Shown: in pieces, positions 6,331 through 41,997 of the stretch
Layout: the number at the start of each line of letters is the position of its first letter
Numbering within the stretch: the first letter of the stretch is position 1
Position numbers and translations under genes: made by a program
The notes under the pieces: model-generated
The model's database searches: none
What the model was told of the DNA's origin: nothing
Seen by the model: the letters and a program-made list of their open reading frames with translations, nothing else
UHGV virus genome: UHGV-1367765
From: a virus
Direction: 5' to 3' (one strand)
Length of the DNA: 50,578 bases

Positions 6331-6754
6331 AGCTGTGTGGCGAAGTAACCACTCTTAACAGCATAACCAATTTTTTACGTACGTAAACCTCTAAACAATA
6401 TTTGTGAGAATGATATCGAGTGTTCAAAACACCACCACAATCACATAAGGAAAAATAAACAAATAATCATTAAATAATTTCCGACGTTATTTTCAATGAG
6501 TTTAAATTAAAGAGATGATTTATAGAACACTTATTAATAACAACCTTTAATATAATTTAGCTACCAAATTTATTTTCTTTCAGAGAATAGTCATGTACAG
6601 CATGCAATAGAAAAAGTTCAGATAAAAATAGAGATCTAGATCACAATTTAAATAAGAATCTAAAACTTATATCTTGAATTAATCACATTGATTAGATGAA
6701 TATTTGTCGCGCAGGGCATCATTTTTTAATAAATGTTCAAAAAAAGGTCTCACG

Positions 6755-7852
6755 ATGAAAAAATTAACAGTGGCAATTTCTGCTGTAGCTGCATCAGTAC
6801 TGCTGGCGATGTCTGCTCAGGCAGCAGAGATTTATAATAAAGACAGTAACAAGCTGGATCTGTACGGAAAAGTTAATGCTAAGCACTACTTCTCCTCTAA
6901 CGAGGCAGATGATGGTGACACTACTTATGTTCGTCTGGGCTTCAAAGGCGAAACCCAAATCAACGATCAACTGACTGGTTTCGGTCAGTGGGAATACGAA
7001 TTCAAAGGCAACCGTGCTGAATCTCAGGGTTCTTCCAAAGATAAAACCCGTCTTGCCTTCGCTGGTCTGAAATTCGGTGACTACGGCTCCATCGATTATG
7101 GTCGTAACTACGGTGTAGCATACGACATCGGTGCGTGGACTGACGTACTGCCAGAATTCGGTGGTGATACCTGGACTCAAACCGACGTATTCATGACTCA
7201 GCGTGCAACTGGTGTTGCAACTTACCGTAATAACGACTTCTTTGGTCTGGTTGATGGCCTGAACTTTGCTGCTCAGTATCAGGGCAAAAATGACCGTAAC
7301 GATTTCGAGAACTACACCGAAGGTAACGGTGATGGCTTCGGTTTCTCTGCTACCTATGAATACGAAGGATTCGGCATTGGTGCGACCTATGCAAAATCTG
7401 ATCGTACCGACACTCAAGTCAATGCAGGGAAAGTTCTTCCTGAAGTATTTGCTTCCGGTAAAAATGCAGAAGTTTGGGCTGCAGGTCTGAAATATGACGC
7501 TAACAACATTTACCTGGCCACTACCTATTCTGAAACCCAGAATATGACGGTGTTTGCTGATCACTTCATTGCTAATAAAGCACAGAACTTCGAAGCTGTT
7601 GCACAATATCAGTTCGATTTCGGTCTGCGTCCGTCCGTTGCTTACCTGCATTCTAAAGGAAAAGACTTGGGTGTTTGGGGTGATCAGGACCTGGTTGAAT
7701 ATGTTGATGTAGGTGCAACTTATTACTTCAACAAAAACATGTCTACTTTCGTTGATTACAAAATCAACCTGCTTGACAAAAATGACTTCACTAAAGCACT
7801 CGGTGTAAGCACTGACAACATCGTTGCTGTAGGATTGGTTTACCAGTTCTAA
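6755..7852 (+). CDS. nmpC: outer-membrane porin, NmpC/Lc (OmpC/OmpF/PhoE family), apparently intact
   Basis: 365 aa with signal peptide [23 protein letters not shown] and porin motifs; near-identical to E. coli NmpC as recalled; sits between Q and the lysis genes on the opposite strand, as in DLP12. Confidence 0.9.
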
Positions 7853-38258: not shown

Positions 38259-38334
38259 TGGTGCTGGTTAACGGACTTGAACCGCTACCCATTCGCTTAC
38301 AAGGCGACCGCTCTACCATTGGAGCTAAACCAGC
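38259..38334 (-). tRNA. tRNA-Thr (anticodon UGU inferred)
   Basis: Hand-folded cloverleaf: 7-bp acceptor stem, D-stem GCTC/GAGC, anticodon loop CTTGTAA, T-loop TTCAAGT, 3' ACCA. Confidence 0.55.
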
Positions 38335-38339
38335 ATGTT

Positions 38340-38414
38340 TGGCGGGACAGCGTGGACTCGAACCACGATAAGAAGGTTAACAGCCTTCCGTAATGACCTT
38401 TATACGACTGACCC
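38340..38414 (-). tRNA. tRNA-like gene, anticodon GUU (Asn) inferred; possibly degenerate
   Basis: Cloverleaf with anticodon loop CTGTTAA, T-arm CGTGG-TTCGAGT-CCACG, 3' GCCA, but a U-U mismatch in the acceptor stem and a 3-bp D-stem. Confidence 0.4.
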
Positions 38415-38505: not shown

Positions 38506-38994
38506 CTATGCTACATGTTTAATTTTCTCTACACGTTTCCGGTTTTTAAACGCACCATCCAGAACAGGGTAAATCATAAACAACGAGGAATTGAGGATTT
38601 CGTCAACTTCCCGGCGACAGGTTGCGAGCGATGGTTTTTGAATGCGCCCGCCGCCCCGGCATAACATCTTGCGAGGTCTTGCGACGCGATGATAGTAAGA
38701 TGCAATGGCGTGCTTGGAAGAGCCGTGGGCGTAGTAACTGAGGAGGATGCCAAAGGCTTTCTTGTCAATGTACATGACGGAATCGACGACCTGAGAAATC
38801 AACATTCCATCATCATCATTACACATTGGCCTTGTCATAACTCTTCCCGGCTCTACGCTCTCCATGAACTTCGCTATTACGCTGCTCATGCGCTTTTCCA
38901 GACGACCTGAATAAACCCATGCGCCCCACAGTTCAAGCCATCCATTCAGCCAATCGTGCTGCTCTTTGGTGAGGTTTAGTTCTCTTATGCTCAT
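38506..38994 (-). CDS. late-gene antiterminator Q (Q82/21 family)
   Basis: WLELWGAWVY motif shared with the prophage A Q; cysteine cluster; directly upstream of the late promoter region. Confidence 0.65.
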   Translation of the reverse strand: MSIRELNLTKEQHDWLNGWLELWGAWVYSGRLEKRMSSVIAKFMESVEPGRVMTRPMCNDDDGMLISQVVDSVMYIDKKAFGILLSYYAHGSSKHAIASYYHRVARPRKMLCRGGGRIQKPSLATCRREVDEILNSSLFMIYPVLDGAFKNRKRVEKIKHVA

Positions 38995-39179
38995 CGTCTT
39001 CCCCTCTTGCCCTGTTTGACCATCAGGACGCCGTTAACTATTACGTGACGCTCGCCTTTGCTGTCTCGGTTGTACTTGAGCACTGTTCCTCTTGCGCAGG
39101 AAAGCATCCTCGCCACTTCGGTCTGATTTCCTCGTGTCTGGATAAGAAGCTCTGGTATCGTTTGAATTGTGGCGTTCAT
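38991..39179 (-). CDS. ninH: NinH
   Basis: TIPELLIQTRGNQTEVARMLSCARGTVLKY matches lambda NinH as recalled. Confidence 0.75.
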   Translation of the reverse strand: MNATIQTIPELLIQTRGNQTEVARMLSCARGTVLKYNRDSKGERHVIVNGVLMVKQGKRGRR

Positions 39180-39538
39180 ACGTTCTCCAGTTCGGTGATT
39201 TTTATTCCAAGCCGTCCGCCTGGTACTTTCACACCACGAATTACGTGAATGTCATCGAATTGCTCGTCGTCTTCCGCAAATCCGGCGTGGATAAGGGAGT
39301 CGAGTAAACCCTTCAGGATGTTATCGAGGTCGCGGCGGCGGGAGTCTGGAACGTCTGCGATGACTTTGATGCGGAGTCGTGATTTGGTGAAAATGTCTAA
39401 CTTAAGTTGGCGGATGATTTGCTGAACGTCTTTTCGGTATTTCTGGCCTTTATCGCTGATGTAGTATTGACTTCCCCGTCTTCGCCAGTAGGTATTCACC
39501 GACGGCGGGTATGGAAGCACAAACTGATATTCGTTCAT
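39176..39538 (-). CDS. rusA: Holliday-junction resolvase RusA
   Basis: LPYPPSVNTYW and RRRDLDN motifs. Confidence 0.75.
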   Translation of the reverse strand: MNEYQFVLPYPPSVNTYWRRRGSQYYISDKGQKYRKDVQQIIRQLKLDIFTKSRLRIKVIADVPDSRRRDLDNILKGLLDSLIHAGFAEDDEQFDDIHVIRGVKVPGGRLGIKITELENV

Positions 39539-39813
39539 TGGACAAACACCCTCCCATTGTTAACCAATTTTTTAAGGGTAAGCACAATGGCCCGATCCAT
39601 TTCAGCCCTTCGCTCTTCCCTGCTCATATCTCTCCCATTATCAATTCTTGAATGACAATCAACACATAGCGCAGCAGTAAGGCAATCATCTACTTTAATC
39701 CCAACCCCCTTCCCTTCATTTCTGTGAGCGGCCTGAACTCCGTATCTTCCGCAAAGAACGCAAAATTCAATATCCCTGACTGCCTGAAGCCATTTTTTGC
39801 TTCTAAACATCAA
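39535..39813 (-). CDS. DUF1364 (YbcO-like) putative nuclease
   Basis: Cys/His pattern CVLCGRY...AAHRN...CVDCHSRIDNG typical of YbcO-like proteins. Confidence 0.5.
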   Translation of the reverse strand: MMFRSKKWLQAVRDIEFCVLCGRYGVQAAHRNEGKGVGIKVDDCLTAALCVDCHSRIDNGRDMSREERRAEMDRAIVLTLKKLVNNGRVFVQ

Positions 39814-40312
39814 TCCCCTCCAAAAAACGTCGGTACGCTGATTTGTTTTTTATGTTGCACACTGTCTGCGCACAAACACCAAATTCTTTGGCTATATCTC
39901 TGTATTTGCCTTTTGATTTATATATTGATTTCACTTGTTCTGGCGTTAGTTTGCAGAAGTGATGATTAAACCCATGAACAAGCAATCCGGAATCAAATCC
40001 ATGTTTCGCATTTTCTGTTCGCGTTACCCACTCAAGATTTTCAACTTTATTATTAAGTTTATTTCCATCCTTGTGATTAACTTCCGGTTTGCCATCTGGG
40101 TTATCAATAAATACTTCTGCAACAATTCTGTGAACCATTTTATATGATGGTCTTTTCCCGCCACCTGGATACAGACCGACAAATGCATATCCTCCTGGTT
40201 TAATGCCATGAGATAATTTTTTTGATTTACGGCATGAAATGATGTCTCCATTTTCAGTTACTTTATATATACCCTCAAAGCCGGGGATATCTTTTTCTTT
40301 AACATCACTCAT
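39803..40312 (-). CDS. HNH homing-endonuclease-like protein (NUMOD4 + HNH + C-terminal HTH)
   Basis: IPGFEGIYKVTENGDI (NUMOD4-like), VNHKDGNKLNNKVENLEWVTRTEN (HNH); AT-rich island. Confidence 0.65.
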   Translation of the reverse strand: MSDVKEKDIPGFEGIYKVTENGDIISCRKSKKLSHGIKPGGYAFVGLYPGGGKRPSYKMVHRIVAEVFIDNPDGKPEVNHKDGNKLNNKVENLEWVTRTENAKHGFDSGLLVHGFNHHFCKLTPEQVKSIYKSKGKYRDIAKEFGVCAQTVCNIKNKSAYRRFLEGIDV

Positions 40313-40481
40313 CGTCTTCTTCCTCGTACATTGAGCTATTCGGATCGCTCATCAGTTCTGCGCAGCAGTGCTCACACACGTGAACTTCCAGCACATGCAG
40401 CTTCTGACCGCAGTTAGCGCACGTTAAAGCTCGCTCGACGCTTTCTTTCTGGTATTGAAGGGTTTGTGATGGGCTAAGCAT
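40305..40481 (-). CDS. ninF: NinF (58 aa; not in the supplied ORF track)
   Basis: Own translation [44 protein letters not shown]... matches lambda NinF as recalled; coordinates from manual reading. Confidence 0.55.
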   Translation of the reverse strand: MLSPSQTLQYQKESVERALTCANCGQKLHVLEVHVCEHCCAELMSDPNSSMYEEEDDE

Positions 40482-40863
40482 TATTGACGTCCTGCATCAT
40501 GAGGAAGACAATCATGGCGGCACGGAGTGGATTGTCATATGCGACACCAACATTCGGTCCGGCATCATCAAACAATTCCCTTGCGTTGTCTGTAGCGCAC
40601 GGCATTGAGGGATTGTCTAAAATTATGCTGATGTTGTTTTCAGTGATAATCGGCCATGCGTCTGCTGGGTTTGCGCATGGGTTAAAGGATCCGCGCTCAA
40701 CCTCTACTTCAACTGCGTCTCCGTTTACAATGTCTCCCTCAAATGAGATAAACACCATCGCGCCATTCTCACCTTCTTTGTAATCCGGTGATCCGTTATG
40801 AATGGCTTCGAATACCGCCACGTTAATTTCAAAATCACTTAACTGTGAATAATCCATTGTCAT
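40474..40863 (-). CDS. hypothetical nin-region protein (NinX-like?)
   Basis: Start taken at internal ATG ([12 protein letters not shown]); family uncertain. Confidence 0.35.
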
Positions 40864-41036
40864 TTCCTCGCACGATGTCTTAGCCACCGGATATCCCACA
40901 GGTGAGCCGTGTAGTTGAAGGTTTTTACGTCAGATTCTTTTGGGATTGGCTTGCGTTTATTTCTGGAGCGTTTCGTTGGAAGGTATTTGCAGTTTTCGCA
41001 GATGATGTCGGTGATACTTCGTCGCTGTCGCCTCAT
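40860..41036 (-). CDS. ninE: NinE
   Basis: [23 protein letters not shown]...[18 protein letters not shown] matches lambda NinE; AGGAGG RBS. Confidence 0.75.
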
Positions 41037-41560
41037 GCCGCCCTCCTGACGCCCTGCCCGATCGCCATCAATGCCGCTTTGGATACGGTAGTAAACATCC
41101 GTCGAGGACTGATGAGCGGGCGCCAAATCAGCAGCATTGAGCCTTTGCTGTTTCCCTTCTTCTCCAGCCCCGTCGATGGTTCGATAAAATTAATCCGTCC
41201 ATCAGTGATGATGCGAACTTCGTCAACGCTCTCCAGAGCCTTGCTGAACCATCCGACTGACATATCCTCTGGCACAAGCATAACTACCGTCTGTCGCTGT
41301 TGTATGCACTGCTCAGCGGCTTTTTCCACCCACGGCCTGATATTGCTGTACGGTTGGTTATTCCAGATTGCACCGTGGCTTACCCACTCAGAATTGAGCG
41401 CGTCGTCGGCCTCAGTTAGCCAGTGAGCACACAGAGCATTTTTGTCGCTCGCTGCCGAATCCAGCCAGAATCCAAACTCAATATCCAGTGCATCAAAAAG
41501 CCAAAGCGGCGTTTGCCAGCAGTCCTTGTCGTGTGCTGGCGTATTTGATTTGATAGTCAT
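41033..41560 (-). CDS. phage DNA N6-adenine methyltransferase (Dam-type)
   Basis: [12 protein letters not shown]...NQPYSN motif pattern of lambdoid-phage Dam methylases. Confidence 0.7.
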
Positions 41561-41997
41561 GCAGCCCGATCTCCCCATCTCGCTTTCCACTCCAGAGCCA
41601 GTCTCGCTTCGTCTGACCACTTAACGCCACGCTCTGTACCGAATGCCTGTATAAGCTCTAATAGCTCCGCAAATTCGCTTACACGCATCCTGCTGGTTGA
41701 CTGGCCTATTACCACAAAGCCATTCCCGGCAAGGTTAGGAACAACATCCTGCTGCTTTAATGCTGCGGTAAACACACACTTCCAGCTTTCTGCATCCAGC
41801 CAGCGACCATGCCATTCAACCTGACGAGAGACGTCACCTAAGCAGGCCCATAGCTTCCTGTTTTGGTCTAAGCTGCGGTTGCGTTCCTGAATGGTTACTA
41901 CGATTGGTTTGGTTGGGTCTGGAAGGATTTGCTGTACTGCGTGAATAGCGTTTTGCTGATGTGCTGGAGATCGAATTTCAAAGGTTAGTTTTTTCAT
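41557..41997 (-). CDS. ninB: recombination protein NinB
   Basis: 146 aa, MKKLTFEIRSPAHQQNAIHAVQQILPDPTKPIVVTIQERNRSLDQN matches lambda NinB. Confidence 0.85.
   Translation of the reverse strand: MKKLTFEIRSPAHQQNAIHAVQQILPDPTKPIVVTIQERNRSLDQNRKLWACLGDVSRQVEWHGRWLDAESWKCVFTAALKQQDVVPNLAGNGFVVIGQSTSRMRVSEFAELLELIQAFGTERGVKWSDEARLALEWKARWGDRAA

What the first reader, a model, noticed from the sequence alone, without database searches (positions are those of the whole stretch)
39803..40312. HNH/NUMOD4 homing-endonuclease-like gene in an AT-rich island in the prophage B nin region
The gene has NUMOD4-like and HNH motifs and a C-terminal HTH, and the local sequence is visibly AT-rich compared with neighbours. 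It is wedged between the DUF1364 gene and ninF with overlapping start and stop codons. This looks like a free-standing homing endonuclease, which can drive marker exclusion between co-infecting phages.
Basis: partly seen in the sequence, partly recalled or inferred. Interest (0 to 1): 0.45.

Follow-up and report, generated by a model that had tools for sequence, protein, structure and literature searches.

The report
I-HmuI-type HNH endonuclease gene in prophage
A small AT-rich gene in the nin region of a lambda-like prophage encodes an intact I-HmuI-type HNH endonuclease, an ordinary kind of selfish "homing" nuclease gene; it occurs in about 0.6% of complete E. coli genomes and always sits next to the same small nuclease gene.

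Summary
A 169-aa ORF at 39803-40312 (- strand) scores above Pfam's cut-offs for HNH_3 and NUMOD4. It matches I-HmuI (PDB 1U3E) by sequence (E 9e-19) and by predicted fold over 165 of 169 columns, including the C-terminal helix-turn-helix. The catalytic positions are invariant in 65 relatives. Its GC is 37% against 50% for the window. It overlaps ninF and the downstream gene by 8 nt each, and there is no intron.

The gene is sporadic: 34 of 5426 complete E. coli genomes and two phages (Louie, Dewey). Other phages carry roi, a 213-bp ORF or nothing in the same slot, so HNH-less alleles exist.

Two points are new.
- The block that differs from HNH-less phages is the HNH gene plus the downstream 91-aa gene, a divergent YbcO/DUF1364 homologue. 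This pair is co-inherited down to 60% identity while the upstream genes vary.
- Most 58-75%-identical relatives carry the first 15 codons of a canonical ybcO gene fused to their N-terminus. This insertion footprint points to the 5' end of ybcO as the homing site.

Verdict: a free-standing homing-endonuclease gene, a new member of a known kind. Nuclease activity and homing are inferred, not shown. Interest is modest.

The parts
39803..40312 (-). HNH endonuclease ORF, 169 aa, I-HmuI-type. RefSeq names this protein 'NUMOD4 motif-containing HNH endonuclease' (WP_001286130.1 in loci whose sequence is identical).
40169..40294 (-). N-terminal NUMOD4-like beta-strand DNA-binding region (aa 7-48)
   Evidence: Pfam NUMOD4 29.2 bits. 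Strands E6-8, E16-19, E24-26 and E43-47 in the model. This region aligns to the I-HmuI N-terminal domain.
40001..40141 (-). HNH (beta-beta-alpha-metal) catalytic core, aa 58-104. It contains N79-H80 (40073-40078), N92 (40037-40039) and N101 (40010-40012).
   Evidence: Pfam HNH_3 42.2 bits. Residues mapped onto I-HmuI D74/H75/N87/N96. These positions are invariant in 65 relatives.
39815..39949 (-). C-terminal helical helix-turn-helix DNA-binding domain (aa 122-166)
   Evidence: Helices 124-132, 137-144, 148-155 and 161-166. The full-length Foldseek alignment to 1U3E covers this region, and there are weak matches to resolvase, sigma-4 and transposase HTH domains. Sub-threshold CENP-B_N match.
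39535..39810 (-). 91-aa divergent YbcO/DUF1364-like His-Me-finger gene, always co-inherited with the HNH gene. Candidate cleavage-resistant replacement allele or partner.
   Evidence: PHROG 131 E 6e-31. hhalign against canonical YbcO 96% probability. Directly downstream of the HNH gene in 11 of 11 loci of relatives at 60% identity or more. Its divergence tracks that of the HNH gene.
40305..40481 (-). ninF, the conserved upstream flank. The mosaic junction lies at its stop codon (ATGAGTGA, 40305-40312).
   Evidence: Pfam NinF. Homology with HNH-less phages ends at 40299-40304. The ninF 3' end is identical before roi, before orf213 and before the HNH gene.
39176..39538 (-). rusA, the conserved downstream flank. 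Homology with HNH-less phages resumes at 39538.
   Evidence: Pfam RusA

Best explanation
The ORF encodes a site-specific endonuclease with the I-HmuI architecture: an N-terminal NUMOD4 beta-sheet DNA-binding region, an HNH catalytic core and a C-terminal helix-turn-helix.

Expression (inferred). The gene has no promoter or terminator of its own. It overlaps ninF and the next gene by 8 nt each. It is therefore most likely made from the delayed-early pR transcript during lytic growth or induction, when a related co-infecting or resident lambdoid genome is available as a target.

Action (inferred from the family). The enzyme nicks or cuts a related phage genome that lacks it, near its own insertion site. 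Recombinational repair from the HNH+ genome then copies in the HNH gene together with adjacent DNA. This is intronless homing, seen genetically as localized marker exclusion.

Target (inferred from a sequence footprint). The target is most likely the 5' end of the ybcO/DUF1364-type nin gene. The divergent 91-aa YbcO-like gene that always follows the HNH gene would be the co-converted allele that lacks the target.

Shown here: family membership, fold, intact catalytic positions, free-standing status, sporadic distribution, the alternative occupants of the slot, the linkage to the 91-aa gene, and the ybcO footprint in relatives.

Inferred: nuclease activity, target site, homing, and timing of expression.
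For: Family and fold:
- Pfam HNH_3 and NUMOD4 are above their cut-offs.
- I-HmuI (1U3E) matches by sequence at E 8.9e-19 and by fold at E 6.5e-10 over 165 columns, using a model with pLDDT 92.
- N79, H80, N92, N101 and H104 are invariant in 65 relatives of 37-72% identity.
- PADLOC's 'homing endonuclease' models match at E 1e-24.

Free-standing status and expression:
- No Rfam intron model matches.
- Promoter-like sites are no more frequent than in shuffled sequence, and there are no terminator-like sites.

Distribution:
- The gene is in 34 of 5426 E. coli genomes at 95-100% identity (99% or more in 31 of the 34), in different prophage backbones.
- The eight sampled HNH+ loci share only 38990-40444.
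- The ninF-to-ybcO slot holds roi (HK620), a 213-bp ORF (720R6, ABTNLsp11242) or nothing (RM8082, SEN22).
- The same 91-aa allele occurs without the HNH gene in 3 genomes.

Linkage and footprint:
- Relatives have variable upstream genes: NinF, 81-100-aa ORFs, a 658-aa methylase or DUF1367. A YbcO-family gene is always adjacent.
- Among 80 distant relatives, only about one has any such ORF within 2.5 kb.
- 17-18 of the 25 closest relatives begin with the YbcO N-terminus MANLRKEARGRECQV.
- At DNA level this is an isolated 44-45-nt island, 86-93% identical to the first 45 nt of ybcO/hkbD.

Literature:
- Free-standing I-HmuI-like HNH genes of Skunavirus phages cluster by insertion location and cause marker exclusion (PMC12724721).
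- I-HmuI nicks 3 nt from its insertion site (PMC3017599).
- T4 mobE is a free-standing HNH gene that mobilizes flanking DNA (PMC2790892).
Against: - No nuclease or homing assay exists for this protein.
- No exact empty allele with the window's ninF allele joined directly to the window's 91-aa allele was found. That scan has low power because the collection holds one genome per species. The three HNH-less copies of the 91-aa allele carry a different ninF.
- Both junctions lie exactly at gene boundaries, as ordinary lambdoid mosaic joints do.
- The window's copy lacks the ybcO footprint, so its own target is less certain.
- The I-HmuI metal ligand D74 is Asn here. This Asn is invariant in the clade, so it is probably tolerated.
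- The element is rare (0.6% of genomes), which shows no sign of a sweep.
- One of the eight sampled copies is a pseudogene, W95*.
Confidence: 0.6

Rival explanations
1. Passive mosaic cargo. The gene is a genuine HNH-family gene, but it now moves only by the ordinary homologous or illegitimate recombination that shuffles lambdoid nin modules at gene boundaries. The nuclease would be inactive, or would have no cognate target among its current relatives.
For: - Both junctions coincide with gene borders. The ninF 3' end is identical in front of three unrelated genes.
- The flanks ninF, rusA and ninH are widely shared modules.
- The element has a low population frequency.
- One copy is a pseudogene.
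- No exact empty site was found.
Against: - Catalytic and structural positions are invariant over 37-72% divergence.
- Full-length ORFs are kept in 7 of 8 sampled loci. Of 8 distinct variant sites, 5 are synonymous.
- The ybcO 5' fusion recurs with lineage-specific sequence variants. This is expected if that segment repeatedly serves as a homology arm.
Confidence: 0.22
2. Functional two-gene module. The HNH nickase and the adjacent 91-aa YbcO-like His-Me-finger protein work together. They might each cut one strand, or they might act in phage recombination or replication or in excluding rival phages. On this reading they are kept for the phage's benefit, not as a selfish element.
For: - The pair is conserved and its two genes diverge in parallel: 73/78%, 65/62%, 60/64% and 63/64% identity for HNH/91-aa.
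- More distant relatives still sit beside YbcO or Ref-like nucleases.
- I-HmuI relatives are nickases (PMC3017599).
- nin regions are rich in recombination nucleases (PMC5714182).
- An intron-encoded HNH endonuclease gives a competitive benefit to phage PhiPA3 (PMC11620839).
Against: - The 91-aa subfamily and canonical YbcO are common without any HNH gene, as in SEN22, HK225, HK639, HK620 and RM8082. The small protein therefore does not need the HNH.
- Co-inheritance is equally expected from co-conversion of a flank.
- In one lineage the neighbour is upstream, and in another it is a different family.
Confidence: 0.12
3. Packaging-associated HNH. The protein would be an HK97 gp74-type cofactor of terminase.
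For: HNH proteins of that role exist in lambdoid phages. Two HNH+ prophages (strains 042 and Nord1) carry a separate 350-bp HNH gene next to a P27-family small terminase.
Against: - This gene lies in the early nin operon, far from the terminase genes.
- It has the I-HmuI architecture with NUMOD4 and HTH domains.
- The same prophages already have the terminase-linked HNH.
- Most backbones that carry it are P22-like, with portal and coat genes of that type.
Confidence: 0.02

Closest known systems
I-HmuI (Bacillus phage SPO1; PDB 1U3E), a nicking HNH homing endonuclease
   Same: - Same three-part architecture and size (169 aa against 174 aa).
- Sequence match at E 8.9e-19 over aa 6-121; fold match over 165 columns.
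- The equivalents of general-base His75, Asn87 and Asn96 are conserved.
   Different: - I-HmuI is encoded inside a group I intron of the DNA polymerase gene. This gene is free-standing between nin genes.
- The metal ligand Asp74 is Asn79 here.
- Identity is only about 29%.
- The target is unknown.
Free-standing HNH homing endonucleases of T-even phages (MobE and relatives) and intronless homing (PMC2790892, PMC2988022)
   Same: - An intergenic, sporadically present endonuclease gene next to a conserved gene.
- Mobilization of the gene together with flanking DNA.
   Different: - This one is in a temperate lambdoid prophage and is translationally coupled inside an early operon.
- No cleavage or homing data exist for it.
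- The protein is closer to I-HmuI than to MobE.
I-HmuI-like free-standing HNH endonucleases of lactococcal Skunavirus phages (PMC12724721)
   Same: - Variable presence between closely related phages.
- Phylogenetic clustering by insertion location.
- Truncated remnants occur.
- Most are in early or replication modules.
- Marker exclusion has been shown for some members.
   Different: - Different host and phage group, and only distant sequence relatives.
- Here the insertion location is a YbcO-type gene of the nin region.
Putative HNH homing endonuclease fused to the N-terminus of eaE in Salmonella phage epsilon34 (PMC2629481)
   Same: It is a P22-like phage in which an HNH ORF is fused in frame to the first codons of a resident gene. 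Relatives of this gene show the same thing with ybcO.
   Different: - The locus is different: the ea region against the nin region.
- The window's own copy has no such fusion.

Membership tests
I-HmuI-like HNH endonucleases (Pfam HNH_3 + NUMOD4; His-Me finger) | HNH_3 domain above Pfam's gathering score | tested here: met
   42.2 bits against 24.8, aa 58-102
I-HmuI-like HNH endonucleases (Pfam HNH_3 + NUMOD4; His-Me finger) | NUMOD4 N-terminal DNA-binding motif | tested here: met
   29.2 bits against 23.4, aa 7-48
I-HmuI-like HNH endonucleases (Pfam HNH_3 + NUMOD4; His-Me finger) | General-base His, structural Asn and metal-binding Asn (I-HmuI H75, N87, N96) | tested here: met
   H80, N92 and N101 align to these residues and are invariant in 65 relatives
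I-HmuI-like HNH endonucleases (Pfam HNH_3 + NUMOD4; His-Me finger) | Second metal ligand (I-HmuI Asp74) | tested here: inconclusive
   This position is Asn79 here and is invariant in the whole clade. Asn can probably serve as a metal ligand, but this was not shown.
I-HmuI-like HNH endonucleases (Pfam HNH_3 + NUMOD4; His-Me finger) | Overall fold, including the C-terminal helix-turn-helix | tested here: met
   AlphaFold2 pLDDT 92.3. Foldseek match to 1U3E: E 6.5e-10, probability 1.00, 165 columns.
I-HmuI-like HNH endonucleases (Pfam HNH_3 + NUMOD4; His-Me finger) | Site-specific nicking or cleavage activity | not testable with these tools
   Needs purified protein and DNA substrates
Free-standing homing endonuclease gene (intronless homing) | Not inside an intron or intein; a separate ORF between genes | tested here: met
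   No Rfam intron match. The ORF overlaps both neighbouring ORFs by 8 nt.
Free-standing homing endonuclease gene (intronless homing) | Sporadic presence among closely related genomes, with alleles that lack it | tested here: met
   - 34 of 5426 E. coli genomes and 2 of 413 matching phage records carry it.
- The slot holds roi, orf213 or nothing elsewhere.
Free-standing homing endonuclease gene (intronless homing) | An exact empty site: both flanks identical, differing only by the endonuclease gene | tested here: not met
   - HNH-less copies of the 91-aa allele carry a different ninF.
- A pattern scan for window-type ninF joined to the window-type 91-aa gene found nothing in one-genome-per-species representatives, a low-power test.
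Free-standing homing endonuclease gene (intronless homing) | Insertion footprint in, or next to, a conserved target gene | tested here: met
   - Met in relatives: ybcO codons 1-15 are fused to the HNH ORF, 86-93% DNA identity over 44-45 nt.
- Not present in the window's own copy.
Free-standing homing endonuclease gene (intronless homing) | Co-conversion of flanking DNA with the endonuclease gene | tested here: inconclusive
   The 91-aa gene is always co-inherited and diverges in parallel. HNH+ loci share a common core, 38990-40444, in varied backbones. Plain linkage would give the same pattern.
Free-standing homing endonuclease gene (intronless homing) | Cleavage of the endonuclease-less allele and biased inheritance in crosses | not testable with these tools
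   Needs biochemistry and phage crosses
Terminase-associated HNH (HK97 gp74 type) | Adjacent to terminase or cos; short stand-alone HNH | tested here: not met
   The gene lies in the nin operon between ninF and rusA. Separate terminase-linked HNH genes exist in HNH+ prophages 042 and Nord1.

The most novel reading that the evidence does not exclude
The mobile unit may be a two-gene 'cut-and-replace' cassette and not the HNH gene alone. On this reading the endonuclease targets the 5' end of canonical ybcO/DUF1364 genes of rival lambdoid phages. Repair then installs the HNH ORF, fused to the first 15 ybcO codons, together with a divergent, cleavage-resistant but functional YbcO substitute (the 91-aa gene). 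This would make homing endonucleases a direct, testable cause of some of the sharp gene-boundary mosaic joints in lambdoid nin regions.
Probability: 0.3. Interest if true: 0.5.

Novelty: new member of a known kind. Interest (0 to 1): 0.3.

Why it matters
Free-standing I-HmuI-like HNH genes are common in phages: tblastn matches 2739 phage records. RefSeq already names this protein. The gene itself is therefore ordinary.

Its modest value is that it offers a tractable case in temperate E. coli phages, which are genetically easy and for which cultured HNH+ phages (Louie, Dewey) exist. It comes with a concrete predicted homing site, the first ~45-60 nt of ybcO/hkbD, and a predicted co-converted neighbour. 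If confirmed, it would link homing endonucleases to the mosaic structure of lambdoid nin regions and to competition between co-resident prophages.

Tried and rejected
- Exact empty-site scan. The pattern was the window-type ninF 3' end, 0-30 nt, then the window-type 91-aa 5' end, searched in GTDB species representatives. It gave 0 hits. This is uninformative because only one E. coli genome is represented.
- IMG/VR scan with the HNH alignment. Only relatives of 48% identity or less were returned. I used them as a background control instead.
- Search for the fused ybcO5'::HNH cassette (L008) in complete E. coli genomes, to find an exact HNH+/HNH- pair. Only ninX/ninF fragments matched.
- NCBIfam gave no hit for either protein.
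- A PDB sequence search with the 91-aa protein gave only chance-level matches.
- The promoter and terminator scan showed no signal above shuffled sequence.
- The window holds no canonical ybcO gene that could be a resident target.
- Group I intron hypothesis: rejected.
- Terminase-cofactor HNH hypothesis: rejected on position and architecture.
- Literature search for homing endonucleases in nin regions: nothing specific to this gene.

Full report
**1. The observation**

The window has a 169-aa ORF at 39803-40312 on the - strand. It lies in a co-oriented nin operon of a lambdoid prophage. The gene order on the - strand is:
- ninB, 41557-41997
- Dam methylase, within 41033-41620
- ninX, 40474-40899
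- ninF, 40305-40481
- the ORF
- a 91-aa gene, 39535-39810
- rusA, 39176-39538
- ninH, 38991-39179
- Q, 38506-38994
- two tRNA genes, then holin and lysozyme

The ORF scores above Pfam's curated cut-offs for HNH_3 (42.2 bits against 24.8) and NUMOD4 (29.2 against 23.4). It matches PHROG 59 'HNH endonuclease' at E 7.6e-51.

Its GC content is 0.367 against 0.501 for the window. This is the second-lowest 510-nt stretch of the 50.6 kb, at the 1% tail.

The ninF stop and the ORF start share ATGAGTGA. The ORF stop and the next gene's start share ATGTTTAG.

The one correction concerns the neighbour: as a DUF1364/YbcO member it is below Pfam's cut-off (18.9 bits against 29.9).

**2. What the protein is**

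The only significant solved relative by sequence is I-HmuI, the nicking HNH homing endonuclease of Bacillus phage SPO1 (1U3E, E 8.9e-19, aa 6-121).

Mapping the alignment gives these correspondences:

| I-HmuI | This protein |
|---|---|
| H75 | H80 |
| N87 | N92 |
| N96 | N101 |
| D74 | N79 |

In an alignment of 65 relatives of 37-72% identity, N79, H80, N92, N101 and H104 are invariant. The Asp-to-Asn difference is therefore a clade trait, not decay.

An AlphaFold2 model built on that alignment is confident (mean pLDDT 92.3). Its only strong PDB match is 1U3E (E 6.5e-10, probability 1.00), aligned over 165 columns. That alignment includes the C-terminal three-helix region, which also gives weak matches to HTH domains of resolvases, sigma-4 and mariner transposases.

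No Rfam intron model matches the region, so the gene is free-standing. The promoter and terminator scan shows nothing above shuffled sequence. Together with the 8-nt overlaps, this suggests co-transcription and translational coupling with the nin genes. That is an inference.

**3. Distribution and insert-less alleles**

- The gene's DNA occurs in 34 of 5426 complete E. coli genomes, at 99% identity or more in 31. In all 30 records listed it is flanked by NinF and a 'hypothetical protein'. RefSeq calls it 'NUMOD4 motif-containing HNH endonuclease'.
- In the phage collection only Escherichia phages Louie and Dewey carry it, although 413 records match the flanks.
- Eight sampled HNH+ loci share only about 38990-40444 (ninH, rusA, the 91-aa gene, HNH and most of ninF). 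Outside this core they have different Q alleles, different genes upstream of ninF and different replication modules.
- Within the HNH ORF these loci differ at 8 distinct sites: 5 synonymous, 2 missense and one nonsense (W95* in strain EA7).

HNH-less phages match the window up to 39538 on one side and from about 40299-40304 on the other. Between the same ninF and rusA flanks they carry the following:
- HK620: roi plus hkbD
- 720R6 and ABTNLsp11242: a 213-bp ORF plus a ybcO-type gene

The ninF 3' end is identical in all of them, up to and including ATGA(G/A)TGA.

The non-homologous block in the window is therefore the HNH gene and the 91-aa gene together.

That 91-aa allele occurs in 37 E. coli genomes: the 34 HNH+ ones, and three (RM8082, DETEC-S565, NCTC9104) where it directly abuts a ninF gene with no HNH. 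In those three, homology with the window starts at 39801, four to five codons into the gene, and the ninF allele is a different one. More distant HNH-less members of the same subfamily follow NinF (SEN22), NinI (HK225) or NinE (HK639).

So insert-less alleles exist. An exact empty site with both flanks identical was not found. A pattern scan of species-representative genomes gave nothing, but its power is low.

**4. Linkage to a YbcO-type gene**

The large protein database holds a clade of 58-75%-identical relatives in E. coli, Salmonella, Klebsiella and Citrobacter.

Their upstream neighbours vary:
- NinF
- 81-100-aa ORFs
- a 658-aa DNA methylase
- DUF1367

In every locus at 60% identity or more (11 of 11) the gene immediately downstream, overlapping the HNH gene, is a 91-aa protein of the window's subfamily.

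Its divergence tracks that of the HNH gene:

| Relative | HNH identity | 91-aa identity |
|---|---|---|
| E. coli (P0003) | 73% | 78% |
| Salmonella (P0016) | 65% | 62% |
| Citrobacter (P0022) | 60% | 64% |
| Klebsiella (P0019) | 63% | 64% |

At 52-59% identity the neighbour is one of these:
- a canonical YbcO downstream (a metagenome contig)
- a canonical YbcO upstream (Aggregatibacter)
- a Ref-like RecA-dependent nuclease

Among 80 more distant relatives from IMG/VR, only one has a clear YbcO-like ORF within 2.5 kb, and it is not adjacent.

The 91-aa subfamily is only about 24% identical to HkbD/YbcO. It is nevertheless homologous in its core (hhalign 96%, E 4.7e-9, residues 24-89). Its N-terminal ~23 residues do not align.

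DUF1364/YbcO is a predicted His-Me-finger nuclease family typical of the neighbourhood of rusA and Q (PMC5714182).

**5. An insertion footprint**

Of the 25 closest relatives, 17-18 begin with M(A/S)NLRKEARGRECQV(R), followed by the usual 'DI.GFEG' start of the I-HmuI-like fold. This sequence is the N-terminus of canonical YbcO/HkbD (MANLRKEARGRECQVRIYGVCNG...).

At DNA level, the first 44-45 nt of the HNH ORF in four E. coli loci are 86-93% identical to the first 45 nt of ybcO/hkbD of 720R6, ABTNLsp11242 and HK620. This is an isolated island of homology.

More distant relatives carry variant versions of the same prefix, such as MSKLTKLARGRDCQV and MKNADLTKQARGRECTV. These resemble other YbcO variants.

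The simplest reading is that this endonuclease lineage sits inside the 5' end of a ybcO-type gene, fused in frame after codon 15. That segment would then be the upstream homology arm, and the target would be nearby. I-HmuI itself nicks 3 nt from its insertion site (PMC3017599). A parallel in-frame fusion of an HNH ORF to the start of eaE was noted in the P22-like phage epsilon34 (PMC2629481).

The window's copy lacks this prefix. It starts MSDVKEK-DIPGFEG, and its first 9 nt (ATGAGTGAT) are those of the 213-bp ORF that follows ninF in 720R6. This suggests a secondary recombination at the ninF border.

**6. Explanation and rivals**

The best-supported reading (about 0.6) is a functional free-standing homing endonuclease. 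It would be made during lytic growth. It would nick or cut related lambdoid genomes at or near the 5' end of their ybcO-type gene. It would then be copied in, together with the adjacent 91-aa allele, by recombinational repair.

This matches known free-standing HNH elements:
- T4 mobE (PMC2790892, PMC2988022)
- Skunavirus I-HmuI-like HNH genes, which cluster by insertion site, leave truncated remnants and cause marker exclusion (PMC12724721)

Rivals:
- (i) Passive mosaic cargo with no current homing (about 0.22). It is favoured by the gene-border junctions, the low frequency and the lack of an exact empty site. It is disfavoured by the invariant active site and the recurring lineage-matched ybcO prefix.
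- (ii) A cooperative two-nuclease module (about 0.12). It is favoured by the conserved pairing. It is disfavoured because YbcO-type genes are common without any HNH.
- (iii) A terminase-cofactor HNH (about 0.02). It is rejected on position and architecture.

Nuclease activity, target and homing are all untested.

**7. Novelty**

The family, the architecture and the lifestyle are known, and RefSeq already names the protein. I found no paper describing this gene or a nin-region homing endonuclease.

It is a new member of a known kind. The added value is a specific, testable prediction of target (the ybcO 5' end) and of co-converted cargo (the 91-aa gene). Interest 0.3.

Noticed in passing
L008:3001-3044, L009:3001-3044, L010:1367-1410, L011:3001-3044 (relatives; not in the window copy): The first 44-45 nt of the HNH ORF in 73%-identical relatives are 86-93% identical to the first 45 nt of canonical ybcO/hkbD. 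The result is an in-frame MANLRKEARGRECQV prefix, which I read as an insertion footprint. 17-18 of the 25 closest relatives have such a prefix.
   Followed up: yes
window 39535-39810 (-): The 91-aa gene downstream is a distinct, unnamed subfamily of YbcO/DUF1364-like His-Me-finger proteins. It is below the Pfam cut-off, has no NCBIfam model and is a 'hypothetical protein' in RefSeq. hhalign against YbcO gives 96% probability, and the N-terminal ~23 residues differ. In HNH+ loci it starts 2-5 codons later than in HNH-less loci (MFRSKKW against MAIYRSSKW, MRIFRSNKW and MRSTYRNKKW).
   Followed up: partly
L034:5001-5510 (E. coli EA7): One of the eight sampled HNH+ loci has a nonsense mutation at the invariant Trp95 (W95*). 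RefSeq annotates only the N-terminal 'NUMOD4 domain-containing protein'. This may be decay of the endonuclease gene or a sequencing error.
   Followed up: partly
window 40299-40312 and loci L002-L004: The position after ninF is a multi-allelic slot. roi (723 bp), a 213-bp ORF or the HNH gene all start in the same ATGA(G/A)TGA overlap with the ninF stop codon, and the ninF 3' ends are identical.
   Followed up: yes
window 38259-38414 (-): tRNA-Thr(TGT) and tRNA-Asn(GTT) genes lie between the Q antiterminator and the holin. The same pair is present in some but not all HNH+ prophages and in phage 720R6.
   Followed up: no
window 38990 (ninH/Q border): Five of the eight sampled HNH+ loci lose homology with the window exactly at the ninH/Q border. 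There a 624-bp Q allele replaces the window's 489-bp Q. This is another sharp mosaic joint at a gene boundary.
   Followed up: partly
L024:2217-2798 (SEN22) and L009:1996-2544: Other lambdoid phages carry a second, different HNH_3-type endonuclease gene just after ninB. nin regions therefore hold several distinct HNH insertion sites.
   Followed up: no
window 41033-41620 and 41557-41997 (-): The longest ORF for the Dam-type methyltransferase overlaps the end of ninB by 64 nt and starts at a GTG. The Pfam match begins at residue 24, so the real start is probably further downstream.
   Followed up: no
window 6343-6852: This is the lowest-GC stretch of the whole window (29.4% GC), lower than the HNH gene. 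I did not examine it.
   Followed up: no
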